DNA from: a virus | Taxonomy: Duplodnaviria; Heunggongvirae; Uroviricota; Caudoviricetes | Reading direction: 5' to 3' (one strand) | IMG/VR virus record: IMGVR_UViG_3300024333_000003 | DNA: 64,000 nucleotides | In this document: one piece after another, positions 22,436 to 64,000 of the stretch | How the letters are laid out: each line of letters opens with the position of its first letter | Position numbering within the stretch: position 1 is the stretch's first letter | Translations under genes and position numbers: made by a program | Notes under the pieces: model-generated | Database searches by the model: none | What the model saw: only the letters and a program-made list of their open reading frames with translations | Told to the model about the DNA's origin: nothing

Positions 22436-23488
22436 TTAGTGAGATATGAATGTGTACGGGATGATATTCCTGTAAAATGGCATGAATTGGATTTACTACC
22501 CGGATTAAATAACGAGTGGATACTAATTCAGTCAAACGGTATCGTAGATCCTTCTAAAACAGAATTAATTAGGAACCAACCGGCTGCCGAGTTTCGTGGA
22601 ACCTTTGAACAAGCTAATATAGAATTAGAAAAACGTATAAAAACGCTTGAGCAGCTAGGTTACGTTAAAGTCGAAAAAAAGACGGATGATACAGAATTAT
22701 TACAACCTTAAAATAGGTTGTCCATTAAAAAAAGTAACAATTGAAAACCTAGAAATACGCCGCCCTATGGGGCGAAATAAGTTATATCTTAAAGTAACTG
22801 ATGGGCAGCGCTCATTCACTGTAAACGAAATATGGTGTAAAGATGATAACAAACCTACACAAGGCTTATGGATGGATTTTGACCAAGACGGTCAAATTTT
22901 TGCTACAAGCGACTTGGCTCGATTACTTGCTTCTTTGGATATTAGTTCAATTGGCGAATTAATCGGCAAAGTTATAACAGTGAAACCAAAAAATAATGGA
23001 TTTCTTTGTGTAAAAATAGGTGCCTGACAACAGGCACCACCAAAAAAAATGACTATACAAAAAGCTATTACGTTGATTCCCGATGAAGAGTTGAGAAAAA
23101 TGTTTTATACCTTTCTTGACAAACATAAACTTCTTGATCATGAAGTAATTACTTGTTACCAAAACATGGGCGGGATTATATATATTGAACCATTTACTGC
23201 AATCGTTAAAAATAATCGTACAACACTTTCGCCTGTTCCATCATATCATGTATCCGGAGGATACCATGGGCCGAATCAGGAGTTAATGTGTTTATATGGT
23301 TTGATGTCGATTTTGCTTGACACTAAATAAAAAATTACGTATATTAATACATGCAATTCTTCGAACAAAAATATCGCACATTTATTGTAGGACTTGATAA
23401 CCCATCTGTCATGCCCTGTGGGTGGTATTTATGTTCACCATCCAGACCCCATCTATGGGGCGTACTGACAAGGTCCGTGAACTAAACC

Positions 23489-52949: not shown

Positions 52950-53700
52950 TGCCCATTAACCTTATTGGTTAGCTATGAACAATCATAGTACTGTTCGCCA
53001 GAACTGCATTCCAGAATGATTTAGGTTAATTGCGAAAGCCCCTGGAACAGGGGAGTCCTACGCATACTTACCCGTCGTAGGTGAGCCTGTCTAATTATGG
53101 GTTAGACCCAGGGTCGATCCAAAAGGTAAGCTCGATCGAAATTAACTATTGTCTGCGTGGCCGAGAACGAAATAAGCACTAGTCTCTAAAACTAGTTACA
53201 CGGGGTCGTTCCCCGTCGCAGACACTTATTCCTCTGTGGTGAAATGAAAAGAGATGTATATTTGTTACGTATTAATATACATTACTAAGTCACTAGATTG
53301 AATTAGTAGGTGACAGCATCGAGTTACCAGTATAGACTGTTCTTTATGGTCAAGTTCAGAGCAAGTGTATTGGAAGAATAACTAGGATGAAGCGATTAAA
53401 CCAATTGTCATGCGACGAACGTTTAGTTGCGTAGCGGCTGAATATTCAATTGAAAATTAGAATGGGATCTTTACTACTCCCTGTCGAACGCTTACAAACG
53501 GAACTGACTGTCAGTAGACTAAAAGTAATGCTGCAGGTTTGAGTCCTGCCAGAGGGATAAATTTTTATCCGGACGGCGTATTATTCTCTCGACGCCTAAT
53601 AAATATGGGGAGATTATCAGTCCTGTCATAAACAATTCCGCTCAATGAGCACCGGAGCCATTTGATAGGACTTTTGCATTATATATGGCTCCGCCACGAT
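52950..53700 (+). ncRNA. group I intron-like ribozyme core in an ORF-free region
   Basis: P4-P6-like UUAAUUGCGAAAGCCCCUGGAACAGGGGAGUCCUACGCAUAC (~53024-53065). R-like CAGUAGACUAAAAG (~53515-53528) and S-like AUUAUCAGUCC (~53609-53619) can form P7. Confidence 0.45.
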
Positions 53701-54397: not shown

Positions 54398-55440
54398 TGA
54401 CACCAGGATTATCTGATGGTCTCGCGAAGTCATTCTGGCAACGCAAAGAGGGCACATTTGGTATGATTGTCGCAGTAGCATTAGCGGCGGCAGCTTTATA
54501 CGGACTAAATCTAGCATTACCATTTATTATTGGTTTGTTAGAAAATACATTAACGGCAGCGTTTCTTTTTATGACTGTAGTTATTGTAGGTACGATCTTA
54601 ACAAGTAAGCGATTTTGGACCTTATTTTTTGGTTCATTTAAACTTATTATGCGTTGGGTCACTGGGATTTTCATTACTATTGATCCGATCGGTATATTAA
54701 AAAATTATGTAGATAAATTAGCTGATAAACTTGTCTTAATTGAAAAACAAATAAAGAATCTCCGAGGTCAGATGGGGCAATTAAAAGTCACCATTGACAC
54801 CAACGAGAGAGATCGTCAGCGGTCTATTTCGATGGCAAAGGCGGCAAAAACTTCTGGTAAAAAAGCGGCATTAGTATTAAATGCACGTAGTGCTGGAAGG
54901 TTGAAAGAATCAAACATCACGTTACAGCAGCTCTACACAAAGCTGGAGAGTTTGATGCGTATGTTGAACAAGATGCGAGAAGTCTCTGAATTTATGTATG
55001 AAGACATCAAACAAAATGTAGATACTCTCGAGCGACAAACCGCGGCAGTAACCACTGGTCACAAAGCCATGACTGCGGCAATGTCCTTTATTCGCGATGC
55101 ATCTGATGATAAAAAGCTATATGATCAAACAGTTGAAAATCTACTCAATGATTATGGGCAGAAACTTGGAGAAATCGATCAATTCATGGAAGTTGCAACT
55201 CCATTTATTGAGGGTGTTGATCTAGCTAATATGGCCTTTGAAGCAGACACATTAAAGGAACTTGAATTATGGGAAAGCAAAGTAGATAGTTTGTTGCTAG
55301 GCGACACAAAAGCATTACTTGTCGGTAATGAAGAACTCGCTCCTTTGTTAAACGAATTACCCTCGGCGCAACAAGTGCCAATAGAATCAAAATCACAATC
55401 AACCACAACATCCAAATATTTACGAAAGAATCGATCATGA
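54397..55440 (+). CDS. membrane protein with coiled-coil C-terminal half (347 aa)
   Basis: 2-3 N-terminal TM segments then a long coiled coil; translationally coupled to the flanking genes. Confidence 0.5.
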   Translation: MTPGLSDGLAKSFWQRKEGTFGMIVAVALAAAALYGLNLALPFIIGLLENTLTAAFLFMTVVIVGTILTSKRFWTLFFGSFKLIMRWVTGIFITIDPIGILKNYVDKLADKLVLIEKQIKNLRGQMGQLKVTIDTNERDRQRSISMAKAAKTSGKKAALVLNARSAGRLKESNITLQQLYTKLESLMRMLNKMREVSEFMYEDIKQNVDTLERQTAAVTTGHKAMTAAMSFIRDASDDKKLYDQTVENLLNDYGQKLGEIDQFMEVATPFIEGVDLANMAFEADTLKELELWESKVDSLLLGDTKALLVGNEELAPLLNELPSAQQVPIESKSQSTTTSKYLRKNRS

Positions 55441-57227
55441 ACGAAGGAACCGGAATACGCCCAGCCGGAAGGCTGCTTATTATTATGGCAATAGTTGGAA
55501 CATTATTCTATTTGTTATTTTTTGGACCTCTTAACCAATATATTCCCGGCAAAGAACCCGCCAAGGCAGTTGTAGCAAAAAGGGTAAATCTGGGAAATAT
55601 TGCAAATACAAAAAGTATTGCAGCGGAACTTCCGCTTCCGTCGGCAGACCCAGCACCTGCTACAAACACAACTTTCAAGTATGAAATAATGGCCTGGAAT
55701 TCACAGTTTTCTCTGATGCTTGCCAATGGTGGTATTGTTACCACATCGGGGTCGCTTATGGAAAAGTACGGGGTTAATATTACACTAGAGCGACAAGATG
55801 ATTGTGAAAAAATGAAGGCAGACCTAGTGGCATTTGCAACTGAGCTCAAAGACGGAAATCCATATCCATCAGAAAAACCTGCATTTGTTGCTGTAATGGG
55901 AGATGGTGCTGCACAATTTATAGCCGCACTCAATCCAGTACTAGAAAAACTCGGCACTGAATATCGTGCTAAAGTCATAGGTTCAGCCGGTTATTCTTAT
56001 GGTGAAGATAAATTGATGGGGCCACCGGAGTGGAAAAAGAATCCTGGGTCTATGCGCGGTTGTGTCATATCCGGTTATCTACGAGATGGCGACTGGAATA
56101 TTGCAATGAAATATACTGGTGACAACGGCATTCCAAATAATCCTGATGAAACCACTTACGATCCTAATGCTGTAAATTGGGTTGCTGCTAATGACTTTTT
56201 AGATGCGCCAGCTAAATTAATTGCGGGATATGAAGAAGATCGTCCAGTAGTTATTAATGGCAAGAAAACTGGAAAAACACAACGTATCAAAGTTCAAGGT
56301 ACAGTTACTTGGACTCCTGGTGATGTGAATGTCGTCGAACAATGCGACCAAGATATCATAAATATCGTAAGCACACGTGAATATGCGGGGCAAATGCCAA
56401 ATGCTATTATTGGGATCGATGTGTGGTGCAAAGACAATCGTAAAATGGTTGAAGGAATGCTTCGAGCTATTGGCGAAGCCGGAGATCAAATAAAAAGATA
56501 CGATGCCGCAAAACAACGCGCAGCAGAAATCTCGGCCAGTGTATATAAGGAGAAGGATGCTGAATACTGGTTACGATATCATGATGGTACAGAAGAACTA
56601 AATAAACACGGTTCAGTAGTGCAATTAGGCGGTTCAAAACCAAACAATATTGCAGATATGGTACTTTTGTTTGGTCCTTCGGGATTATTTAAATCTACCT
56701 ACGTCGCATTTGGTAATGTTGTAATTCAGCAATATCCAAAACTTGTACCAAGCGTACCAGCGCCAGAAATCGCTATCGATGGTTCGTATGTATTAGCTGT
56801 TGCAAAAGAAACCAACACAAATACCTCTACGGCAGATCGTTTTACGTTCAAAAAGGGAAGTACCTTAAAAGAAGTTGTCGGCAAACGTAAATATAGTATT
56901 CAATTCGAAATCGGTAGATCAGCTATACGTGCAGGCCAAGAGAACACTCTCGAAGCATTAAAAGATGAGCTTGCGGTCAGCTTGTCATTGAAAGCTGTAA
57001 TTCATGGACATACTGATAATACTGGTACTCCTGAAGGAAATATGCGTTTATCGGCAGATCGCGCACAAGCTGTACAGTATTGGCTTGAAGGGAAATACCA
57101 AGATTTATTCCCGGAAGGTCGATTAAATATTGTTGCACACGGTCAAACCCGGCCAGTGGCTGACAATGATACAGAGACAGGACGTGCCAAAAACAGACGT
57201 GTCGAAATAGTAACTGGCACAGAGTAA
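55437..57227 (+). CDS. membrane-anchored substrate-binding-like protein with C-terminal OmpA/MotB peptidoglycan-binding domain
   Basis: N-terminal TM, a central region resembling NitT/TauT-family periplasmic binding proteins, and C-terminal NTGTPEGNMRLSADRAQAV...RRVEIV OmpA-like motif. Confidence 0.5.
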   Translation: MNEGTGIRPAGRLLIIMAIVGTLFYLLFFGPLNQYIPGKEPAKAVVAKRVNLGNIANTKSIAAELPLPSADPAPATNTTFKYEIMAWNSQFSLMLANGGIVTTSGSLMEKYGVNITLERQDDCEKMKADLVAFATELKDGNPYPSEKPAFVAVMGDGAAQFIAALNPVLEKLGTEYRAKVIGSAGYSYGEDKLMGPPEWKKNPGSMRGCVISGYLRDGDWNIAMKYTGDNGIPNNPDETTYDPNAVNWVAANDFLDAPAKLIAGYEEDRPVVINGKKTGKTQRIKVQGTVTWTPGDVNVVEQCDQDIINIVSTREYAGQMPNAIIGIDVWCKDNRKMVEGMLRAIGEAGDQIKRYDAAKQRAAEISASVYKEKDAEYWLRYHDGTEELNKHGSVVQLGGSKPNNIADMVLLFGPSGLFKSTYVAFGNVVIQQYPKLVPSVPAPEIAIDGSYVLAVAKETNTNTSTADRFTFKKGSTLKEVVGKRKYSIQFEIGRSAIRAGQENTLEALKDELAVSLSLKAVIHGHTDNTGTPEGNMRLSADRAQAVQYWLEGKYQDLFPEGRLNIVAHGQTRPVADNDTETGRAKNRRVEIVTGTE

Positions 57228-57296
57228 TTCACAAGTAATCAAAAATTTCGGGCAACCGTCAGTAATCCTGGCGGTTGCTCTAATTCAAGGAATAAA

Positions 57297-58082
57297 ATGA
57301 ACCTTACATTGGAAATGTTTTCACCAAACAAGGTTATGTCCAAATCAATTATGACTTCTATGGCAGCAATTCAACTTGCCATAGCTGTTGCAGTATGGTG
57401 GATTTGGCCCTCATACGTGGTTCCTAAACCATTAGAAGTTTTAGCTAGCTTTAGCAAGATATGGTACAATGGTTTCGGGCAAGAACTTATCACAAGTTTT
57501 ATTTTATGTTTGCAAGCGATAGGTATTACATTGATCGTTTCATTAGGATTGACATATGCAACAGTAATGCCTTTTTTCAGACCTATAGCAATGTTTGTGA
57601 CAAAAGGTCGTTTTTTAGGACTAGTTGGTTTTACATTTTTATTTACGTTAATCGCTAGTGGTGGGCACCAACTTAAATTGATGTTGGAAGTATTTGGTAT
57701 GTCCGTGTTTTTCGTCACTTCAATGATGGCGGTTATAGAAGCAATTCCAAAAAGTGAGTTCGACTATGCACGTACATTACAAATGAACGAATGGCGCGCA
57801 GTATTTGAAATCATTGTTTTGGGGCGCGCTAGCGATGCAATCGAGGTATTACAACAAAACTTTGCTATGGGATGGATGATGCTTACTATGGTTGAAGGAG
57901 TTGCTAGATCCGAGGGCGGTGTAGGTAAATTTTTACTTGATAGTAACAAACATTTTGAATTAGCAGATATTTTTGCTATTCAAATAACTATCTTTGTATT
58001 AGGTTTATTTATTGATTATGCTATCGGTGCTCTAAATAAAACTATTTGTCCATACGCATTTATTACGAGGGAAAGAACATGA
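57297..58082 (+). CDS. ABC transporter permease (multi-TM)
   Basis: 261 aa with ~6 hydrophobic segments; 4-nt overlap with the downstream ATPase gene. Confidence 0.5.
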   Translation: MNLTLEMFSPNKVMSKSIMTSMAAIQLAIAVAVWWIWPSYVVPKPLEVLASFSKIWYNGFGQELITSFILCLQAIGITLIVSLGLTYATVMPFFRPIAMFVTKGRFLGLVGFTFLFTLIASGGHQLKLMLEVFGMSVFFVTSMMAVIEAIPKSEFDYARTLQMNEWRAVFEIIVLGRASDAIEVLQQNFAMGWMMLTMVEGVARSEGGVGKFLLDSNKHFELADIFAIQITIFVLGLFIDYAIGALNKTICPYAFITRERT

Positions 58083-58873
58083 AACGGATAACAAAAGAAA
58101 CTTTGCTTCGTATAGAAAACGTTTCTTTAACATACGGCAATCGACAGATTCTCAAAAATGTAAACGGCGAAATTAAAAATAACGTCGGACATGGGCAAGT
58201 TGTAGGATTATTGGGCCCATCAGGAATAGGCAAAACTCAACTATTTCGTATACTATCTGGTCTGCAGAAGCCCACGACAGGAACAGTTCGTATCACTGAG
58301 AAAAATATAGAAGTAACCCCCGGCAGTGTTGGCGTCGTAGCTCAGAACTATCCTCTCTTCGCACATCGCACAGTTATTTCCAATTTACTGTTGGCTGGGC
58401 GAAATAGAAAGGATACTCCTGAAAAAGCACGTATATTTCTGGAGCGGTTTGATTTAAAAGCACAGACACATTTATACCCATCACAGTTATCTGGAGGACA
58501 GCGGCAACGAATAGCCATCATACAACAATTACTATGTAGCGAACATTTTTTATTGATGGATGAACCCTTTTCTGGACTTGATCCTTTAATGATAGATGAA
58601 ATCTGTACATTAATAACCGAAGTCGCAAACCTACATGAATTAAATACCATTATAGTAATCACACACGATCATCGGGCAGCTATTAAAGTCTCCGATATTC
58701 TGTGGTTAATGGGGCGCGATCGTGATGAAAACAACAAAGCAATACCAGGAGCTTATATTAAACATACTTATGATCTTGTAGAAAATGGGTTGGCCTGGCA
58801 AACAGATTTATCATCTTCGCCAGTATTCACGTCATTTGCGAAGATGATAAAAGAACAATTTAAAACACTTTAA
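58079..58873 (+). CDS. ABC transporter ATP-binding protein
   Basis: Walker A GPSGIGKT, signature LSGGQRQR, Walker B LLMDEP. Confidence 0.8.
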   Translation: MKRITKETLLRIENVSLTYGNRQILKNVNGEIKNNVGHGQVVGLLGPSGIGKTQLFRILSGLQKPTTGTVRITEKNIEVTPGSVGVVAQNYPLFAHRTVISNLLLAGRNRKDTPEKARIFLERFDLKAQTHLYPSQLSGGQRQRIAIIQQLLCSEHFLLMDEPFSGLDPLMIDEICTLITEVANLHELNTIIVITHDHRAAIKVSDILWLMGRDRDENNKAIPGAYIKHTYDLVENGLAWQTDLSSSPVFTSFAKMIKEQFKTL

Positions 58874-59660: not shown

Positions 59661-60290
59661 ATGTCAATAATGGACAAAATTTTAGTATTAAAGTTAAATA
59701 GATCTTGGATGCCCGTAGGATTTTCTACGATCGCTAAGGCTGTTGTAGATTTATGTGCTGACATAAACTGTTATGCACTTGACATTCAATATGAACTTGT
59801 TGAAGGTCAACCAGATCTCGATAAGCCTATAAGTATGAATCCTGTTACATGGGATAATTGGATACAATTACCCGTACGACCATGGGACATACCACTGCAT
59901 TCACCAAGTATTACTGTGCGGGCACCAACGGTTCTTATAGCAAGACATTTTGACGCCATGCCTATTATTGCATATGGTACTTATCCTACCACACGTCAGA
60001 TCCAAGAACGAGATGAATTTACTGATCAATACACCGGAAGGAAACTCGCTCCCGCTGAGATGTCGATAGATCATGTTGTGCCAGTATCGAAAGGTGGTAA
60101 ACATACTTGGGACAATATGGTATTAACACATAAAGATATTAACTTTAAAAAAGGTAATAGATTAAATAAAGAAGTAGGTTTAAAGTTAATAAAACAACCT
60201 GCCAAGCCCAGGCCTGTTGCTATAAGTTCTTTGATTCGTGAAGTACGACATGCGGATTGGAAGCATTTTTTGTTGCACAAAATAAAGTAA
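59661..60290 (+). CDS. HNH homing endonuclease
   Basis: IDHVVPVSKGGKHTWDNMVLTHKDINFKKGN (HNH). Confidence 0.7.
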   Translation: MSIMDKILVLKLNRSWMPVGFSTIAKAVVDLCADINCYALDIQYELVEGQPDLDKPISMNPVTWDNWIQLPVRPWDIPLHSPSITVRAPTVLIARHFDAMPIIAYGTYPTTRQIQERDEFTDQYTGRKLAPAEMSIDHVVPVSKGGKHTWDNMVLTHKDINFKKGNRLNKEVGLKLIKQPAKPRPVAISSLIREVRHADWKHFLLHKIK

Positions 60291-60475: not shown

Positions 60476-60904
60476 ATGAAACCCTACCGAAAATTTCGTT
60501 TATTCCAAATAAGATGGAAAGAAAAATTAGGATATCCTGACTGTCCATATTTACATAGATGGACATTATTAATATTTGGATATTCTGTACGATTACACCA
60601 TTGGATGAAATCTGATGACAGGAGATTCTTTCATGATCATGCATGTAATTTCATATCGATAGTATTAAAAGGTCATTATACTAATGTCACACCAGAAGGT
60701 AGTTTCAATGTAAAAGCCTTTTCAATTTGGAAATCTACTGCGTTAAAAAAGCATTATCTGGATATACCAAAAGGTGGTGCATGGACATTATTACTATGTG
60801 GACGACCTTATCATAAATGGGGATTTTATGTTAATGGCCATAAATGGAGACCATTGCGATATTTCCATAAATTTGGTATTATACAAACAAAGGATTATCA
60901 ATAA

Positions 60905-60995
60905 GGAGAGTTGAGTGAGTCCGGTTTAAACTAACGGTTTGCTAAACCGTCGCCAGTCGAAAGACTGGCCACAGGTTCGAATCCTGTACTCTCCG
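60905..60995 (+). tRNA. tRNA-Ser (GCU), class II
   Basis: Anticodon arm ACGGU-UUGCUAA-ACCGU, long variable arm. Confidence 0.8.
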
Positions 60996-61003
60996 CAAGC
61001 ATT

Positions 61004-62947
61004 ATGAGTAAAATATTAATAAAAAACCTACAGATTTATAACGACATTTATGGCCTTAATATAACAGAAATAGAGCGTGATTTATTTGACGCTTTATTCA
61101 CAATGTTTAAAGGCTCAAATCTTACATATATTTATAACTCCGGACCAAATAATAAGGATTTGGTATTACGTTTTAACGGGTATGATGATGCCTTATATCT
61201 TGAACTACCGGACGCAACTGCTAAAAAATTTGGATATAAATTATTTAAATTACGCAATGCGCGATATTATTTAAAATTCGTACCAAAGCAGGAAGATATA
61301 AAATATATTAATATTATCGGGGACATTGGAAATAAAGAACAACAAGCAAAAGAGTTTTCGACCCTAGACGATCTAAAACAACACATTCTAGATAATGACT
61401 TACCGTCATTTCTTAGTAACTTTGCTTTGACACAAATAAAAATAGAAACTCTATATTGGCTTTGTAATAAACTAGATCAATATAAACCATCATTATTTAA
61501 TGATCCTAATAAATATGAAAAATTGCCTGACTACATTCATTATATTGTAGACGTTATACAATTAATGGATGATACCAGAATAGCTTTATATGCAGAAGTA
61601 AATCATGGCTGTAGAACAACTATGATTGGTTACTCCATAAAATTCTATATTACAAAACCGGATAATGCTTCATATAATTGGACTGACCCTGATAGGTATT
61701 GTAGTAATGAGAATGAGAAGACTGGCCAACCTAAGGTATTCTATATTGGCCCCGATCCTGAATTTCCCGAAGAAGAAGCATTAAATAAATATATACGTGG
61801 CCATGAACATATTGTAATTGAAAATTCCACTCTAACTATGATAGCAAAGCGTGATGAACGAAAGAAAATAGAAGATGCGGTAGTAGAAAAGGCACAAGCC
61901 GGAATACAAAAGAAACTCACTGATAAGATAGCTGAATTAGAAACTGGTGGAGAGTTCACGTTTAATGACGTAACATTTAAAGCGCATTCTATTGAATATG
62001 AATCTCATATAATAAAAAGTAATAATGTGAAAGTTAAATATCTCCTTGGTAACTTTATACGCAATCTTCGGGATGATTCGTTCAATTTTGAGAATATATT
62101 TACTGCATTCTGCAAAACAGTAATTACGGAAGCACAAAATTCCGGCAGAGTGAAAATGCAGATTGGGAACATTAATGTTACTTTGGAAGTTCGTAAAAAG
62201 GTAAATTCAGCCGGAACCACAATGGTCACCAACTATATAAATGACTACCGCATAAATAAAGACGAACTTGTCGACGTATTACCGAGAGCGCTATGTTACA
62301 ATAAAGATGAGGACTACGATAACTACCTGGAAAGCGTTAGTAAGTGTTCACTAAGATATCATCGCGCGATAGCAGCCGGTATAATATTACAAGCACTCGA
62401 CGAAATAACTGGGGAAACCGTTGACTTCAAAATTGGATTGGAAAGAGATAAAAATAGAAATTATATCTCATTTGGAGACAAATCAAAATATGTGGTAAAA
62501 GACTCCAACAAGCTGCTCAATTTGATCGGTGTAACCTCAATGAGTCGAATAATTGATATATTAGTAGATCCGGATATAGTAGGAATTACTGGATCCGACA
62601 TCAAATATATTATCGAGACTGGGCGTAAGGTATGGGCTGAGGAACGCACTAAAGAACAAGAAATGCTTTCACAGACTATTGCTTTATTTAACTGTCAAAA
62701 AATGGAAGATGCTTTACTAGACAACGGGCGGGTCGTCAGTGGTTACACTGTTAAAGGTAAATTAAGAGAATATATTGTAGAGACTTCTACAATAAGAGTT
62801 TTTGAATATCCAAGTGGGAAATATTTATGCATGGTTGACAAAGGACAAAATGAGCATGCAAATATCGCACGATTAGTTAATAGAATGTTTGCGTTAGCAA
62901 ATGATTCTAGATTGGCTAATGAAATTACAACTTTACAAACTAAATGA
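61004..62947 (+). CDS. hypothetical protein (647 aa), first gene of an operon with the GG-ended small protein and E1-like enzyme
   Basis: Stop overlaps the start of the next ORF (ATGA). Confidence 0.45.
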   Translation: MSKILIKNLQIYNDIYGLNITEIERDLFDALFTMFKGSNLTYIYNSGPNNKDLVLRFNGYDDALYLELPDATAKKFGYKLFKLRNARYYLKFVPKQEDIKYINIIGDIGNKEQQAKEFSTLDDLKQHILDNDLPSFLSNFALTQIKIETLYWLCNKLDQYKPSLFNDPNKYEKLPDYIHYIVDVIQLMDDTRIALYAEVNHGCRTTMIGYSIKFYITKPDNASYNWTDPDRYCSNENEKTGQPKVFYIGPDPEFPEEEALNKYIRGHEHIVIENSTLTMIAKRDERKKIEDAVVEKAQAGIQKKLTDKIAELETGGEFTFNDVTFKAHSIEYESHIIKSNNVKVKYLLGNFIRNLRDDSFNFENIFTAFCKTVITEAQNSGRVKMQIGNINVTLEVRKKVNSAGTTMVTNYINDYRINKDELVDVLPRALCYNKDEDYDNYLESVSKCSLRYHRAIAAGIILQALDEITGETVDFKIGLERDKNRNYISFGDKSKYVVKDSNKLLNLIGVTSMSRIIDILVDPDIVGITGSDIKYIIETGRKVWAEERTKEQEMLSQTIALFNCQKMEDALLDNGRVVSGYTVKGKLREYIVETSTIRVFEYPSGKYLCMVDKGQNEHANIARLVNRMFALANDSRLANEITTLQTK

Positions 62948-63153
62948 TAAAATATCAACTTATAACATCAACGGGTATGGATATCCGTGAAAAGAACGAT
63001 GAAGAAGCTCTTAAAGATATACAAACAATAGTAGAGCGTAACCATCGTTGGCTGTTTTTGGATGGACAGGAAGTAAATGCAAAAACAGTAACATTGGAAC
63101 AATTGCAGCAAGCACAAATAATAACACTTACTCATACAACATTAGGCGGTTAA
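62944..63153 (+). CDS. ThiS/MoaD-like ubiquitin-fold protein ending in Gly-Gly
   Basis: 69 aa ending ...ITLTHTTLGG*; stop is immediately followed by the E1-like gene ATG. Confidence 0.55.
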   Translation: MIKYQLITSTGMDIREKNDEEALKDIQTIVERNHRWLFLDGQEVNAKTVTLEQLQQAQIITLTHTTLGG

Positions 63154-63759
63154 ATGCCAAAGCGTGTAAACGTTATGATAGCTGGGGCCGGAGGTATAAA
63201 TTCTTGGCTTATACAGCTAATAGCGGATTTGATCACGAAAGAACAAATACCGTTATTTTGGGAATTTACCGTATTTGATGGTGATGAGGTAGAAAAGAAA
63301 AATTTACCTTATCAAAATTTTCAATTTGAAGATCAATTGGAAAATAAAGCCGAAGTACTGGGTAAGCGTTATGGCATGGCATTTAAGAAAAAATATATAA
63401 ATACAAAAAAAGAGTTCGATCCTTACGACTTTGTTATCTGTGGTGTAGATAATCGGGAGTTCCGGGCGATGTTATTTGAATACATGGATGAGCATACTGA
63501 TAAGCAATGGATAGATCTAAGATCAGAAGGAAAATCAATAGCAGTCTTCGCAAAAAATCCGAAAAATACTTTAGCTGAACTTAAAAACACCTTAGGTTCG
63601 GCAGAAGATTCGGGTTCGGGAAGCTGTCAATTAGCTTTCGAACTATCAGCCGGTATTGTACAACTGGGTAATCGTATAGTTGCTAATATCGGGGCTCAAT
63701 ACCTCCTTAATGTGGTCCGCGGAGAGCAAAATACCGCTTCCTTTGTGAGACGATTTTAA
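63154..63759 (+). CDS. E1/ThiF/MoeB-family adenylyltransferase-like protein (short)
   Basis: VNVMIAGAGGINSW Rossmann loop and FDGDEVEKKNLPYQNF (DxDxVExSNLNRQ-type). Confidence 0.6.
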   Translation: MPKRVNVMIAGAGGINSWLIQLIADLITKEQIPLFWEFTVFDGDEVEKKNLPYQNFQFEDQLENKAEVLGKRYGMAFKKKYINTKKEFDPYDFVICGVDNREFRAMLFEYMDEHTDKQWIDLRSEGKSIAVFAKNPKNTLAELKNTLGSAEDSGSGSCQLAFELSAGIVQLGNRIVANIGAQYLLNVVRGEQNTASFVRRF

Positions 63760-64000
63760 GGAAATCCTTTATATAATTGGAACAAGTTGAATATATTTGT
63801 TGGGTTGCCGCCAACAAAAAAAATTTTCACACCTATTAGGTTATAACGCTTGGCGGACTAATTTAGTTCGCCAAGTCATATTATATAAAGTTTATATATA
63901 AGAGGAGAAAATGGCAACTAGACTTAAAATAATTTTAATTATCTGTGCATGTATTTTGGTAACAGCATTAGTGATATTTGTATCAACATCGAATACAACA

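What the first reader, a model, noticed from the sequence alone, without database searches (positions are those of the whole stretch)
61004..63759. GG-ended ThiS/MoaD-like small protein next to an E1/ThiF-like enzyme
A 69-aa ORF ends in …TLGG*. A 201-aa ThiF/MoeB/E1-family protein follows immediately (GAGG Rossmann loop plus DGDEVEKKNLPYQNF). A 647-aa unknown ORF sits upstream and is translationally coupled. This looks like a minimal ubiquitin-like or sulfur-carrier activation pair. In this genome's context it could supply sulfur for tRNA thiolation or conjugate the Ubl to a target, possibly the 647-aa protein.
Basis: partly seen in the sequence, partly recalled or inferred. Interest (0 to 1): 0.7.

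Follow-up and report, generated by a model that had tools for sequence, protein, structure and literature searches.

The report
Phage ubiquitin-like protein activation cassette
A large, uncultured, tRNA-rich phage carries a three-gene operon: a tiny ubiquitin-like protein ending in Gly-Gly, a miniature E1 activating enzyme, and a 647-residue unannotated partner with one cysteine conserved in 151 of 151 relatives; hundreds of viral contigs carry related genes, usually with a JAB peptidase as well, so it looks like a virus-borne ubiquitin-like tagging system that I found described in no paper I searched or read.

Summary
The three ORFs sit exactly where stated, they are coupled, and they are real genes.

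- **E1:** the 201-aa protein passes Pfam ThiF. It keeps the Gly loop, Asp, Lys and Asp, and has an invariant Cys158.
- **Not a minimal pair:** among the 33 non-redundant loci that carry the 650-aa protein, 29 read 650-aa protein, Ubl, JAB peptidase, E1. Four lack JAB, including this window.
- **JAB and the Ubl tail:** every Ubl with residues or a fused domain after GG has a JAB. The four JAB-less loci end exactly in GG.

Best reading (about 0.55): a phage-encoded Ubl conjugation-type module, E1 to cysteine-bearing partner to unknown target. The main rival is a sulfur carrier (about 0.25). tRNA thiolation has no support. This is a new variant of a known kind.

The parts
61004..62947 (+). 647-aa conserved partner protein. 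It belongs to an unannotated viral family of 600-870 aa. Its C-terminal region (about residues 530-647) reads helix, four strands, invariant Cys609 (codon 62828-62830, motif Y-L-C-M-V-D-K), helix with R627/N633/D634. It is a candidate E2-like or cysteine-dependent transfer enzyme.
62944..63153 (+). 69-aa ubiquitin-like beta-grasp protein ending in Gly-Gly (GGC GGT at 63145-63150). Its start overlaps the stop of the upstream gene (ATGA).
63154..63759 (+). 201-aa miniature E1/ThiF-family adenylating enzyme. Features: GAGGIN loop, D42/D44, K65, VDN (D99), DLRSEG, invariant Cys158 (codon 63625-63627). Tyr53 stands where E1s have the Arg of NLxRQ. No CxxC zinc motifs.
   Evidence: Pfam ThiF 4.8e-10. 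NCBIfam nearest is PRTRC_ThiF at 6e-12, below its cut-off. Alignment A2. Profile against PDB. tblastn of plasmids finds PRTRC ThiF.
63848..63876 (+). Hairpin with a 13-bp stem downstream of the E1; likely the end of the transcription unit. It is not followed by a clear T-run.
60905..60996 (+). tRNA-Ser(GCT), ending 8 nt before the start of the 647-aa gene. It is the last gene of the tRNA block and is probably co-transcribed. This is context, not part of the conserved cassette.
22686..23027 (+). Homologue of a roughly 130-aa gene that lies directly upstream of the 650-aa gene in most relatives. Here it is displaced by the tRNA/accessory block at 23.4-61 kb. It is a syntenic neighbour and a functional link is unproven.
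   Evidence: HMM E 9e-22

Best explanation
This is a phage-encoded module that activates and transfers a ubiquitin-like protein. It is a reduced, JAB-less form of a cassette conserved in a clade of uncultured jumbo phages.

**Proposed steps**
1. The 201-aa mini-E1 binds ATP and adenylates the C-terminal Gly69 of the 69-aa beta-grasp protein. This follows from family membership and conserved residues.
2. The activated Ubl is probably captured as a thioester on the invariant Cys158. This is inference, from the position of the cysteine after the DLRSEG strand.
3. The Ubl is passed to the invariant Cys609 of the 647-aa protein. Its C-terminal part has a UBC/RWD-like layout, and its large N-terminal part would select the target. 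This rests on a weak fold signal plus conservation.
4. The Ubl is attached to a still unknown phage or host protein.

**Role of JAB in relatives.** In most relatives a JAB/JAMM metallopeptidase sits between the Ubl and the E1. It must trim Ubl precursors (GG+1 to GG+11 residues, or Ubl fused to another domain). Because it is also kept where the Ubl already ends in GG, it probably also removes the Ubl again. In this genome the Ubl is made in mature form. No JAB gene lies in the 61 kb upstream of the cassette or the 10 kb downstream of it.

**Expression.** The genes are translationally coupled and lie in the replication and nucleotide-metabolism module.
For: **Ubl**
- Beta-grasp model, pLDDT 82.
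- GG is invariant.

**E1**
- Pfam ThiF above threshold.
- Aligns to UBA3 across the Gly loop, the Asp, the Lys and the Mg-binding Asp.
- G11/G13/G14, D42, D44, K65, D99, R104, D121, R123, E125 and S157-C158-Q159 are invariant in 24 sequences.

**Linkage**
- All 33 non-redundant loci that carry the 650-aa protein have 650-aa protein, Ubl, E1 in that order; 29 also have JAB.
- The JABs keep the JAMM motif HxHx(6-7)Sx2D and hit Pfam Prok-JAB at 4.5e-13.

**JAB correlates with the state of the Ubl tail**
- 10 of 10 loci with an extension or fusion after GG have JAB.
- 4 of 4 JAB-less loci end exactly in GG.
- Two loci have the Ubl fused to another domain with GG kept at the junction.

**Conjugation-type affinity**
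- Relatives' JAB and E1 hit CBASS Cap3 JAB models (8e-8) and Cap2 E1-E2 models (2.5e-8).
- In the profile search of PDB sequences (E<=0.01), the named hits are UBA3, MccB, SAE2, Cap2, TcdA, Uba1 and UBA5. No chain named MoeB or ThiF from the classical pathways is listed.

**Partner**
- AF2 pLDDT 88.9.
- Cys609 is conserved in 151/151 and lies just after the fourth strand and before a helix.

**No sulfur-transfer partners in the window**.
Against: **The E2-like call is weak.**
- Foldseek against PDB gave nothing (all probabilities below 0.1).
- No Pfam, NCBIfam or PADLOC E2 model hits the family.
- There is no HPN motif. A second region (362-458) has the same helix, four strands, helices layout, so the fold match may lie there.

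**The E1 is unusual.**
- It has Tyr where E1s have a conserved Arg (NLxRQ).
- It lacks the zinc motifs.

**JAB does not settle the chemistry.**
- JAB with a mature GG carrier also fits sulfur-carrier cycles such as CysO/Mec+ and HcyS/HcyD. That point is from my own knowledge.

**No target is known and no experiment exists.**
Confidence: 0.55

Rival explanations
1. Sulfur-carrier system. The E1 adenylates the Ubl. A host desulfurase or persulfide converts it to a thiocarboxylate. The 647-aa protein, using Cys609, is a new sulfurtransferase that puts the sulfur into a small molecule, a nucleotide, or DNA or RNA. In relatives, JAB matures the carrier or releases a carrier-product adduct.
For: - NCBIfam also gives a weak ThiS-adenylyltransferase hit (2.5e-6).
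- The genome is rich in tRNAs.
- Sulfur-flavoured neighbours occur in this lineage. A relative has an ABC transporter with an NMT1-type binding protein. The window has a PHROG 'cysteine dioxygenase' cupin.
- An invariant cysteine would suit persulfide chemistry.
Against: - No rhodanese domain on the E1. No PP-loop, rhodanese or NifS motif in any window ORF.
- The transporter and the cupin are not conserved with the cassette.
- The tRNA block is an insertion specific to this genome.
- No ThiS, MoaD, ThiG, MoaE, CysM or TtuA family hit for any cassette protein.
- The JAB and E1 score against conjugation-type CBASS models.
- The fold hits of the partner are to Ubl-handling domains, not to sulfurtransferases.
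Confidence: 0.25
2. The 647-aa protein is the substrate, not an enzyme. The E1 alone attaches the Ubl to it, with no E2, as in archaeal SAMP/UbaA or Urm1. This switches its activity, and JAB in relatives reverses the modification.
For: - Strict adjacency and translational coupling of the partner and the Ubl.
- No recognisable E2 by sequence.
- E2-independent conjugation is known for SAMPs and Urm1 (PMC9574740, as listed).
Against: - No lysine is strictly conserved. The best, K613, is at 90%. A cysteine is conserved in 151/151.
- The UBC/RWD-like fold signal suggests a Ubl-handling role.
- A target does not need to be encoded next to the modifier.
Confidence: 0.12
3. The E1-like enzyme does not act on the small protein. 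It acts instead as a TcdA-like tRNA t6A dehydratase or an MccB-like peptide-modifying enzyme, and the GG-ended ORF is incidental.
For: - TcdA and MccB appear among the PDB profile hits.
- One homologue is labelled a tRNA t6A dehydratase by its source.
- The genome is rich in tRNAs.
Against: - GG is invariant and the Ubl fold is confirmed.
- The Ubl co-occurs with the E1 in every locus of the clade, and also in a second, archaeal-virus-like lineage.
- JAB presence tracks Ubl C-terminal extensions.
Confidence: 0.03

Closest known systems
Bil (bacterial ISG15-like) operons, BilA-D; the '6d' operons of Iyer et al. 2006 as I equate them from the shared gene content (PMC1779556; PMC11601603)
   Same: Same parts list in the full cassette of relatives: a free Ubl with a C-terminal Gly, a JAB/JAMM peptidase, an E1, and a fourth protein with a conserved cysteine and a possible E2-like fold. 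BilA is among the structural hits of the Ubl.
   Different: - Carried by a virus, not by a bacterial defence island.
- The E1 is only about 200 aa.
- The fourth protein is about 650 aa with large extra domains and no sequence similarity to BilB or to any E2 model.
- The Ubl has a single beta-grasp and belongs to a new sequence family.
- This genome lacks JAB.
- The only PADLOC matches are to models named JAB and E1-E2; no other defence-system model hits any cassette protein.
Type II CBASS Cap2 (E1-E2 fusion) and Cap3 (JAB)
   Different: - CBASS has no separate Ubl; the CD-NTase C-terminus is what gets conjugated.
- There is no CD-NTase or effector here.
- The E1 and the E2-like function lie on separate proteins.
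PRTRC (ParB-related, ThiF-related cassette) of plasmids and ICEs
   Same: It holds the nearest cellular relatives of the E1. NCBIfam TIGR03736 hits at 6e-12. tblastn hits cover nearly the full length at 24-31% identity. The viral E1 HMM hits a Shewanella PRTRC ThiF at 2.7e-22. PRTRC also contains a small roughly 73-aa protein C that ends in Gly.
   Different: - The score is far below the family cut-off (45 against 145 bits).
- No ParB gene was seen near the cassette.
- None of the other PRTRC proteins matches the 650-aa, Ubl or JAB profiles.
- I found no functional study of PRTRC among the listed papers.
Sulfur-carrier pairs ThiS/ThiF, MoaD/MoeB, TtuB/TtuC, CysO/MoeZ/Mec+
   Same: A small GG-ended beta-grasp with a single-domain E1. 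In the CysO/Mec+ type, a JAB peptidase acts on the carrier.
   Different: - No sulfur donor or acceptor enzyme is present.
- No sequence-family membership for the Ubl.
- The E1 lacks the zinc motifs and a rhodanese domain.
- The partner is unrelated to ThiG, MoaE, CysM or TtuA.
Lambda/T1 tail-assembly Ubl (TAPI) with JAB-NlpC (TAPK) (PMC1779556)
   Same: A phage-encoded beta-grasp with a conserved C-terminal Gly, together with a JAB peptidase.
   Different: - Those systems have no E1 and sit in the tail module.
- This cassette has an E1 and lies in the replication and nucleotide-metabolism module.

Membership tests
E1 / ThiF / MoeB superfamily (Pfam PF00899) | Profile score above the curated threshold | tested here: met
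   39.4 bits against a cut-off of 28.1, E 4.8e-10
E1 / ThiF / MoeB superfamily (Pfam PF00899) | Rossmann GxGxxG loop, ribose-binding Asp, phosphate-binding Lys and Mg-binding Asp | tested here: met
   GAGGIN, D42, K65 and D99 are invariant in 24 sequences and align to the same positions of UBA3
E1 / ThiF / MoeB superfamily (Pfam PF00899) | Conserved Arg of the NLxRQ motif | tested here: not met
   An invariant Tyr53 (NLxYQ) occupies that position in all 24 family members
E1 / ThiF / MoeB superfamily (Pfam PF00899) | Cysteine in the crossover loop (ThiF C184 / E1 catalytic Cys position) | tested here: inconclusive
   An invariant S157-C158-Q159 lies between the DLRSEG strand and the following helix. 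The equivalence to ThiF C184 rests on my own knowledge of that sequence and was not aligned or modelled here.
E1 / ThiF / MoeB superfamily (Pfam PF00899) | Two CxxC zinc motifs of MoeB/ThiF | tested here: not met
   There is no CxxC in the 201-aa sequence
Ubiquitin-like beta-grasp modifiers and carriers | Beta-grasp fold | tested here: met
Ubiquitin-like beta-grasp modifiers and carriers | Exposed C-terminal Gly-Gly | tested here: met
   GG is invariant in alignments A4 and A5. The tail has low confidence, so it is likely flexible.
ThiS / MoaD sequence families | Match to the Pfam or NCBIfam ThiS/MoaD models | tested here: not met
   No family hit for the window protein or for any of 23 homologues
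E2 / UBC superfamily (for the 647-aa protein) | UBC fold (helix, four-strand meander, helices) | tested here: inconclusive
E2 / UBC superfamily (for the 647-aa protein) | Catalytic Cys after strand 4; HPN motif | tested here: inconclusive
   Cys609 is conserved in 151/151 and lies after the fourth strand. There is no HPN motif and no sequence similarity to E2 profiles.
Bil system | Ubl + E2 + JAB + E1 in one operon | tested here: inconclusive
   Ubl and E1 are present. JAB is present in 29 of 33 related loci but absent here. The E2 is unproven.
PRTRC system | ThiF above the TIGR03736 cut-off, plus ParB and PRTRC proteins A-F | tested here: not met
   45 bits against 144.75. No PRTRC model hits the Ubl or the 650-aa family. 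No cross-match to a real PRTRC locus except the ThiF.
Sulfur-carrier pathways (ThiS, MoaD, CysO, TtuB types) | Sulfur donor (rhodanese or desulfurase) and acceptor enzyme in the genomic context | tested here: not met
   A motif scan of all window ORFs found no PP-loop, rhodanese or NifS signature. The neighbours in relatives are replication genes. Host enzymes could still serve.
Sulfur-carrier pathways (ThiS, MoaD, CysO, TtuB types) | Thiocarboxylate formed on the terminal Gly | not testable with these tools
   Needs mass spectrometry

The most novel reading that the evidence does not exclude
A complete ubiquitin-like protein conjugation system is native to viruses. It consists of a new Ubl family, a 200-aa minimal E1, a JAB deconjugase or maturase, and a 650-aa E2/E3-like enzyme of new sequence type. 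It is inherited vertically in a large clade of jumbo phages. The Ubl-E1 core is shared with archaeal viruses. The phage would use it to tag host or phage proteins, for example for takeover or counter-defence.
Probability: 0.4. Interest if true: 0.8.

Novelty: new variant of a known kind. Interest (0 to 1): 0.66.

Why it matters
**What is known.** Ubiquitin-like conjugation in prokaryotes has so far been shown for bacterial anti-phage systems: type II CBASS, Bil and Bub (PMC11601603, PMC11601596).

**What would change.** This is the same kind of machinery on the virus side.
- It sits in a core, syntenic position of a whole phage clade.
- The E1 is about half the usual size.
- The partner protein has no recognisable sequence family.

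**If it conjugates.**
- It would give a tractable three-gene minimal system: 69 + 201 + 647 aa, with no processing step needed.
- It would assign a function to about 500 clusters of unannotated viral proteins.
- It would raise the question of what phages tag in their hosts.

**If it is a sulfur carrier instead.** It would point to an unknown thio-modification made by phages.

**Prior description.**
- A comparative review of 224 jumbo phages contains no ThiF, E1-like, beta-grasp or sulfur term, and mentions ubiquitin only in an unrelated context.
- The 647-aa protein has no tblastn match in 50,697 deposited phage records.
- The E1 has only weak, partial matches there.

Tried and rejected
- **Nucleotide search of phage records** with the region (blastn, distant mode): no match.
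- **tblastn of the 647-aa protein against phage records:** none.
- **Viral-contig scan with the single 647-aa protein:** none.
- **Viral-contig and genome scans with alignment A3:** The scans with A1 gave only a few loci.
- **PDB sequence searches with profiles of the 650-aa family:** full length and C-terminal domain gave only noise.
- **Foldseek of the 647-aa model against PDB:** nothing; the top hits were MHC and Mediator at probability below 0.1.
- **NCBIfam and PADLOC on the Ubl and the 650-aa family:** nothing.
- **Structure prediction with locus-derived Ubl sequences:** It was redone with database homologues.
- **The 142-aa cupin and the ABC transporter as part of a sulfur module:** rejected, because neither is conserved with the cassette.
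- **The variable 230-270-aa genes between Ubl and JAB in some relatives as a core component:** rejected. They are not mutually homologous across loci and show only weak HTH hits.
- **Membership in PRTRC:** rejected.
- **PDB entries 9egb, 9egc and 9egd (best E1 hit):** no paper found.
- **DUF7737:** no literature found.
- **Burroughs et al. 2009 (PMC2732565):** not held in the library.
Full report
**1.

The ORF list gives 61004-62947 (647 aa), 62944-63153 (69 aa, ending TLGG) and 63154-63759 (201 aa), all on the + strand. The DNA shows ATGA overlap between the first two genes. The third gene's ATG follows the TAA directly. tRNA-Ser(GCT) ends 8 nt before the first ATG. A hairpin with a 13-bp stem follows the third gene at 63848-63876, and no terminator-like site lies on the + strand inside the unit.

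The window is part of a roughly 215-kb contig of an uncultured tailed phage.
- It has about 36% G+C.
- It has 37 tRNA genes, including a CTA-anticodon suppressor.
- It encodes a class II RNR, NAPRTase and DNA ligase.
- In the same genome, an SLT, a sigma-70-type factor and a split PolA lie just downstream. In related genomes these are followed by a gene with a weak phage tail-sheath match.

**2. The small protein is a ubiquitin-like beta-grasp.**

- It has no hit in Pfam, PHROGs or NCBIfam, and only a marginal PADLOC hit (E 0.014).
- It does have a family. The loci fetched with the E1 gave 23 homologues, and a profile search gave 29 clusters.
- GG is the only strictly invariant feature besides one Gly in the first hairpin.
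- Against the homologue in another roughly 215-kb contig, pN is 0.23 and pS is 0.81, so the ORF is under purifying selection.
- AlphaFold2 with 25 sequences gives pLDDT 82 and the order strand, strand, helix, strand, strand, short helix, strand, then a floppy tail.

**3. The 201-aa protein is a miniature E1.**

- It passes Pfam ThiF.
- Its nearest curated family is PRTRC_ThiF, far below that family's cut-off.
- 166 homologues, nearly all 180-230 aa, were found by the word-indexed search.
- 311 viral-contig loci encode a relative.
- In 24 diverse members these residues are invariant: G11, G13, G14, D42, D44, Y53, Q54, K65, D99, R104, D121, R123, E125, S157-C158-Q159, G172-N173.
- The profile aligns to UBA3 so that the Gly loop, the Asp after strand 2, the Lys and the Mg-binding Asp coincide. 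The Arg of NLxRQ is a Tyr throughout this family.
- There are no CxxC zinc motifs.
- Cys158 lies where I recall ThiF C184 to be. That equivalence is inference only.

**4. It is not a minimal pair.**

The context of distant E1 homologues shows 650-790-aa protein, 75-88-aa Ubl, Prok-JAB, E1. A script over 84 fetched loci plus the window, with redundancy removed, gives these counts for the 33 loci that carry the 650-aa protein:

| Cassette content | Loci |
|---|---|
| 650-aa protein, Ubl, JAB, E1 | 29 |
| 650-aa protein, Ubl, E1 (no JAB) | 4 (window, L001, L045, L088) |

- The JABs keep the JAMM signature and hit Pfam Prok-JAB at up to 4.5e-13.
- Ten loci have residues after GG (N, K, C, Q, NAN, an 11-residue tail) or a fused 160-aa domain with GG kept at the junction. 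All ten have JAB.
- The four JAB-less loci all end exactly in GG.
- Nineteen loci keep JAB although the Ubl is already mature. Maturation therefore cannot be its only job.
- In this genome no JAB lies in the 61 kb upstream of the cassette or in the 10 kb downstream of it.

**5. The 647-aa protein is a conserved enzyme-like partner.**

- It has no significant family hit and no PDB sequence relative.
- It has no tblastn match in 50,697 phage records.
- An exhaustive profile search finds 499 cluster representatives, of which 171 are at E<=1e-30. The 150 listed are mostly 600-870 aa, apart from fragments.
- The C-terminal half is the best conserved part.
- In 151 sequences with pairwise identity down to about 20%, Cys609, Gly459 and Asp634 are invariant. 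R192, D228, G585, Y590 and N633 are at 99%.
- AlphaFold2 gives a confident model, pLDDT 88.9 and pTM 0.72.
- Two regions have the matching order of helix, four strands, helices: 362-458 and 530-637. In the second, Cys609 follows the fourth strand and precedes a helix that carries R627, N633 and D634.
- Against this, Foldseek finds nothing. Profile comparison with E2 sequences finds nothing. There is no HPN motif. The only recurrent Pfam signal is the uncharacterised DUF7737, hit by 12 of 65 members with a best E of 4.5e-5, over residues 582-621.

I therefore treat 'E2-like' as a lead, not a finding.

**6. Conjugation or sulfur transfer.**

For conjugation:
- JAB is kept with mature Ubls.
- The relatives' JAB and E1 score against CBASS Cap3 and Cap2 models.
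- The named hits in the E1 profile search of PDB are conjugating or peptide-modifying E1s, not classical MoeB or ThiF.
- The partner has an invariant cysteine and a fold signal typical of Ubl-handling domains.
- No sulfur donor or acceptor lies in the 64-kb window.

For sulfur transfer:
- The single-domain E1 with a GG carrier is the ancestral sulfur-carrier layout.
- A JAB can also act in a carrier cycle, as in CysO/Mec+ (my own knowledge).
- This lineage carries an ABC transporter with an NMT1-type binding protein and a cupin filed under a 'cysteine dioxygenase' PHROG.
- However, neither of these travels with the cassette.

The tRNA idea loses its basis. In relatives a roughly 130-aa gene lies directly upstream of the 650-aa gene. 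Its homologue here is at 22686-23027, right after the RNR. The tRNA and accessory block at 23.4-61 kb is therefore an insertion between them.

**7. Comparison with known systems.**

- The parts list of the full cassette equals that of Bil operons: Ubl, E2, JAB, E1 (PMC11601603, PMC1779556). Here it is viral, with a half-size E1, a new Ubl family and a 650-aa partner of new sequence type.
- The nearest cellular E1s are PRTRC ThiF proteins of plasmids, at 24-31% identity over the full length, with an HMM E-value of 2.7e-22. Nothing else of PRTRC is shared.
- The literature searches found no description of this cassette.
- A review of 224 jumbo phages contains no ThiF, E1-like, beta-grasp or sulfur term.
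- A 2026 paper reports ThiF alone on archaeal extrachromosomal elements, proposed to use host ThiS. That is a different case.

**8. Verdict.**

| Claim | Confidence |
|---|---|
| Ubl plus E1 form an activation pair | about 0.9 |
| The 647-aa protein works with them | about 0.85 |
| The chemistry is conjugation-type | about 0.55 |
| Cys609 sits in an E2-like domain | about 0.4 |

This is a new variant of a known kind, of good interest. It is a widespread viral Ubl system with no prior description that I could find, and it offers a compact three-gene version that is ready for biochemistry.

Noticed in passing
window 23489-60996: There are 37 tRNA genes, including a CTA-anticodon (amber suppressor, labelled Pyl) tRNA at 53151-53225. 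The whole 23.4-61 kb block of tRNAs and accessory genes lies between two genes that are adjacent in related phages (the p138 homologue at 22686-23027 and the 647-aa gene). It therefore looks like a large insertion.
   Followed up: partly
window 55437-58873: The phage carries ABC transporter genes: a 596-aa protein with a C-terminal OmpA domain, a permease (57297-58082) and an ATPase (58046-58873). In a related contig the first protein also shows a weak NMT1 (sulfonate/nitrate-type binding protein) hit.
   Followed up: partly
window 60476-60904: A 142-aa protein matches a PHROG labelled 'cysteine dioxygenase' (8e-26). It sits between two tRNA genes. It has no homologue in any fetched related locus, so it is not part of the cassette.
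   Followed up: yes
window 59661-60290: An HNH endonuclease gene lies between tRNA-Met and tRNA-Val. It is conserved (69% identity) in a related 215-kb contig.
   Followed up: no
window 63154-63759 (E1 residue 53): All 24 aligned members of this viral E1 family have Tyr where E1 enzymes have the Arg of the NLxRQ motif. Whether R104 or R123 compensates is unknown.
   Followed up: partly
L048-L084 (IMG/VR contigs), e.g. L080 68-274 and 5989-6558: A second viral lineage has TFIIB-like genes next to the E1, so these are probably archaeal viruses. It carries a 185-aa E1 of the same family and, a few kb away, a homologous 66-69-aa Ubl ending PAIVGG plus 0-2 residues. No 650-aa partner lies within 6 kb.
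   Followed up: partly
L034 4747-5454 and L047 4716-5432: The Ubl is fused to a roughly 160-aa domain, with GG kept at the junction (..LEGG|AEQY..). A short homologue of that domain is a separate ORF after the Ubl in L045. This implies JAB-dependent release, as with polyubiquitin or the BubAB fusion.
   Followed up: partly
L018, L022, L029, L030, L033, L036 (between Ubl and JAB): Variable 226-273-aa genes are inserted between the Ubl and JAB. They show only weak helix-turn-helix hits and are only partly homologous to each other.
   Followed up: partly
L089 (PWNH01000053.1, binned as a Methanomassiliicoccaceae MAG): A 9.9-kb contig binned as an archaeal MAG carries the full cassette, with the JAB split into two ORFs. 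It is probably a viral contig placed in the bin by mistake.
   Followed up: no
L003 488-4702: In a related phage the ribonucleotide reductase gene upstream of the cassette carries two inteins with LAGLIDADG domains. Its PolA is split by a LAGLIDADG gene.
   Followed up: no
L090 (Shewanella aestuarii plasmid pPN3F2_1): The PRTRC cassette next to the nearest cellular E1 relative is flanked by two IscB RNA-guided endonuclease genes. Its 'protein C' (73 aa) ends in ..KTKG.
   Followed up: no
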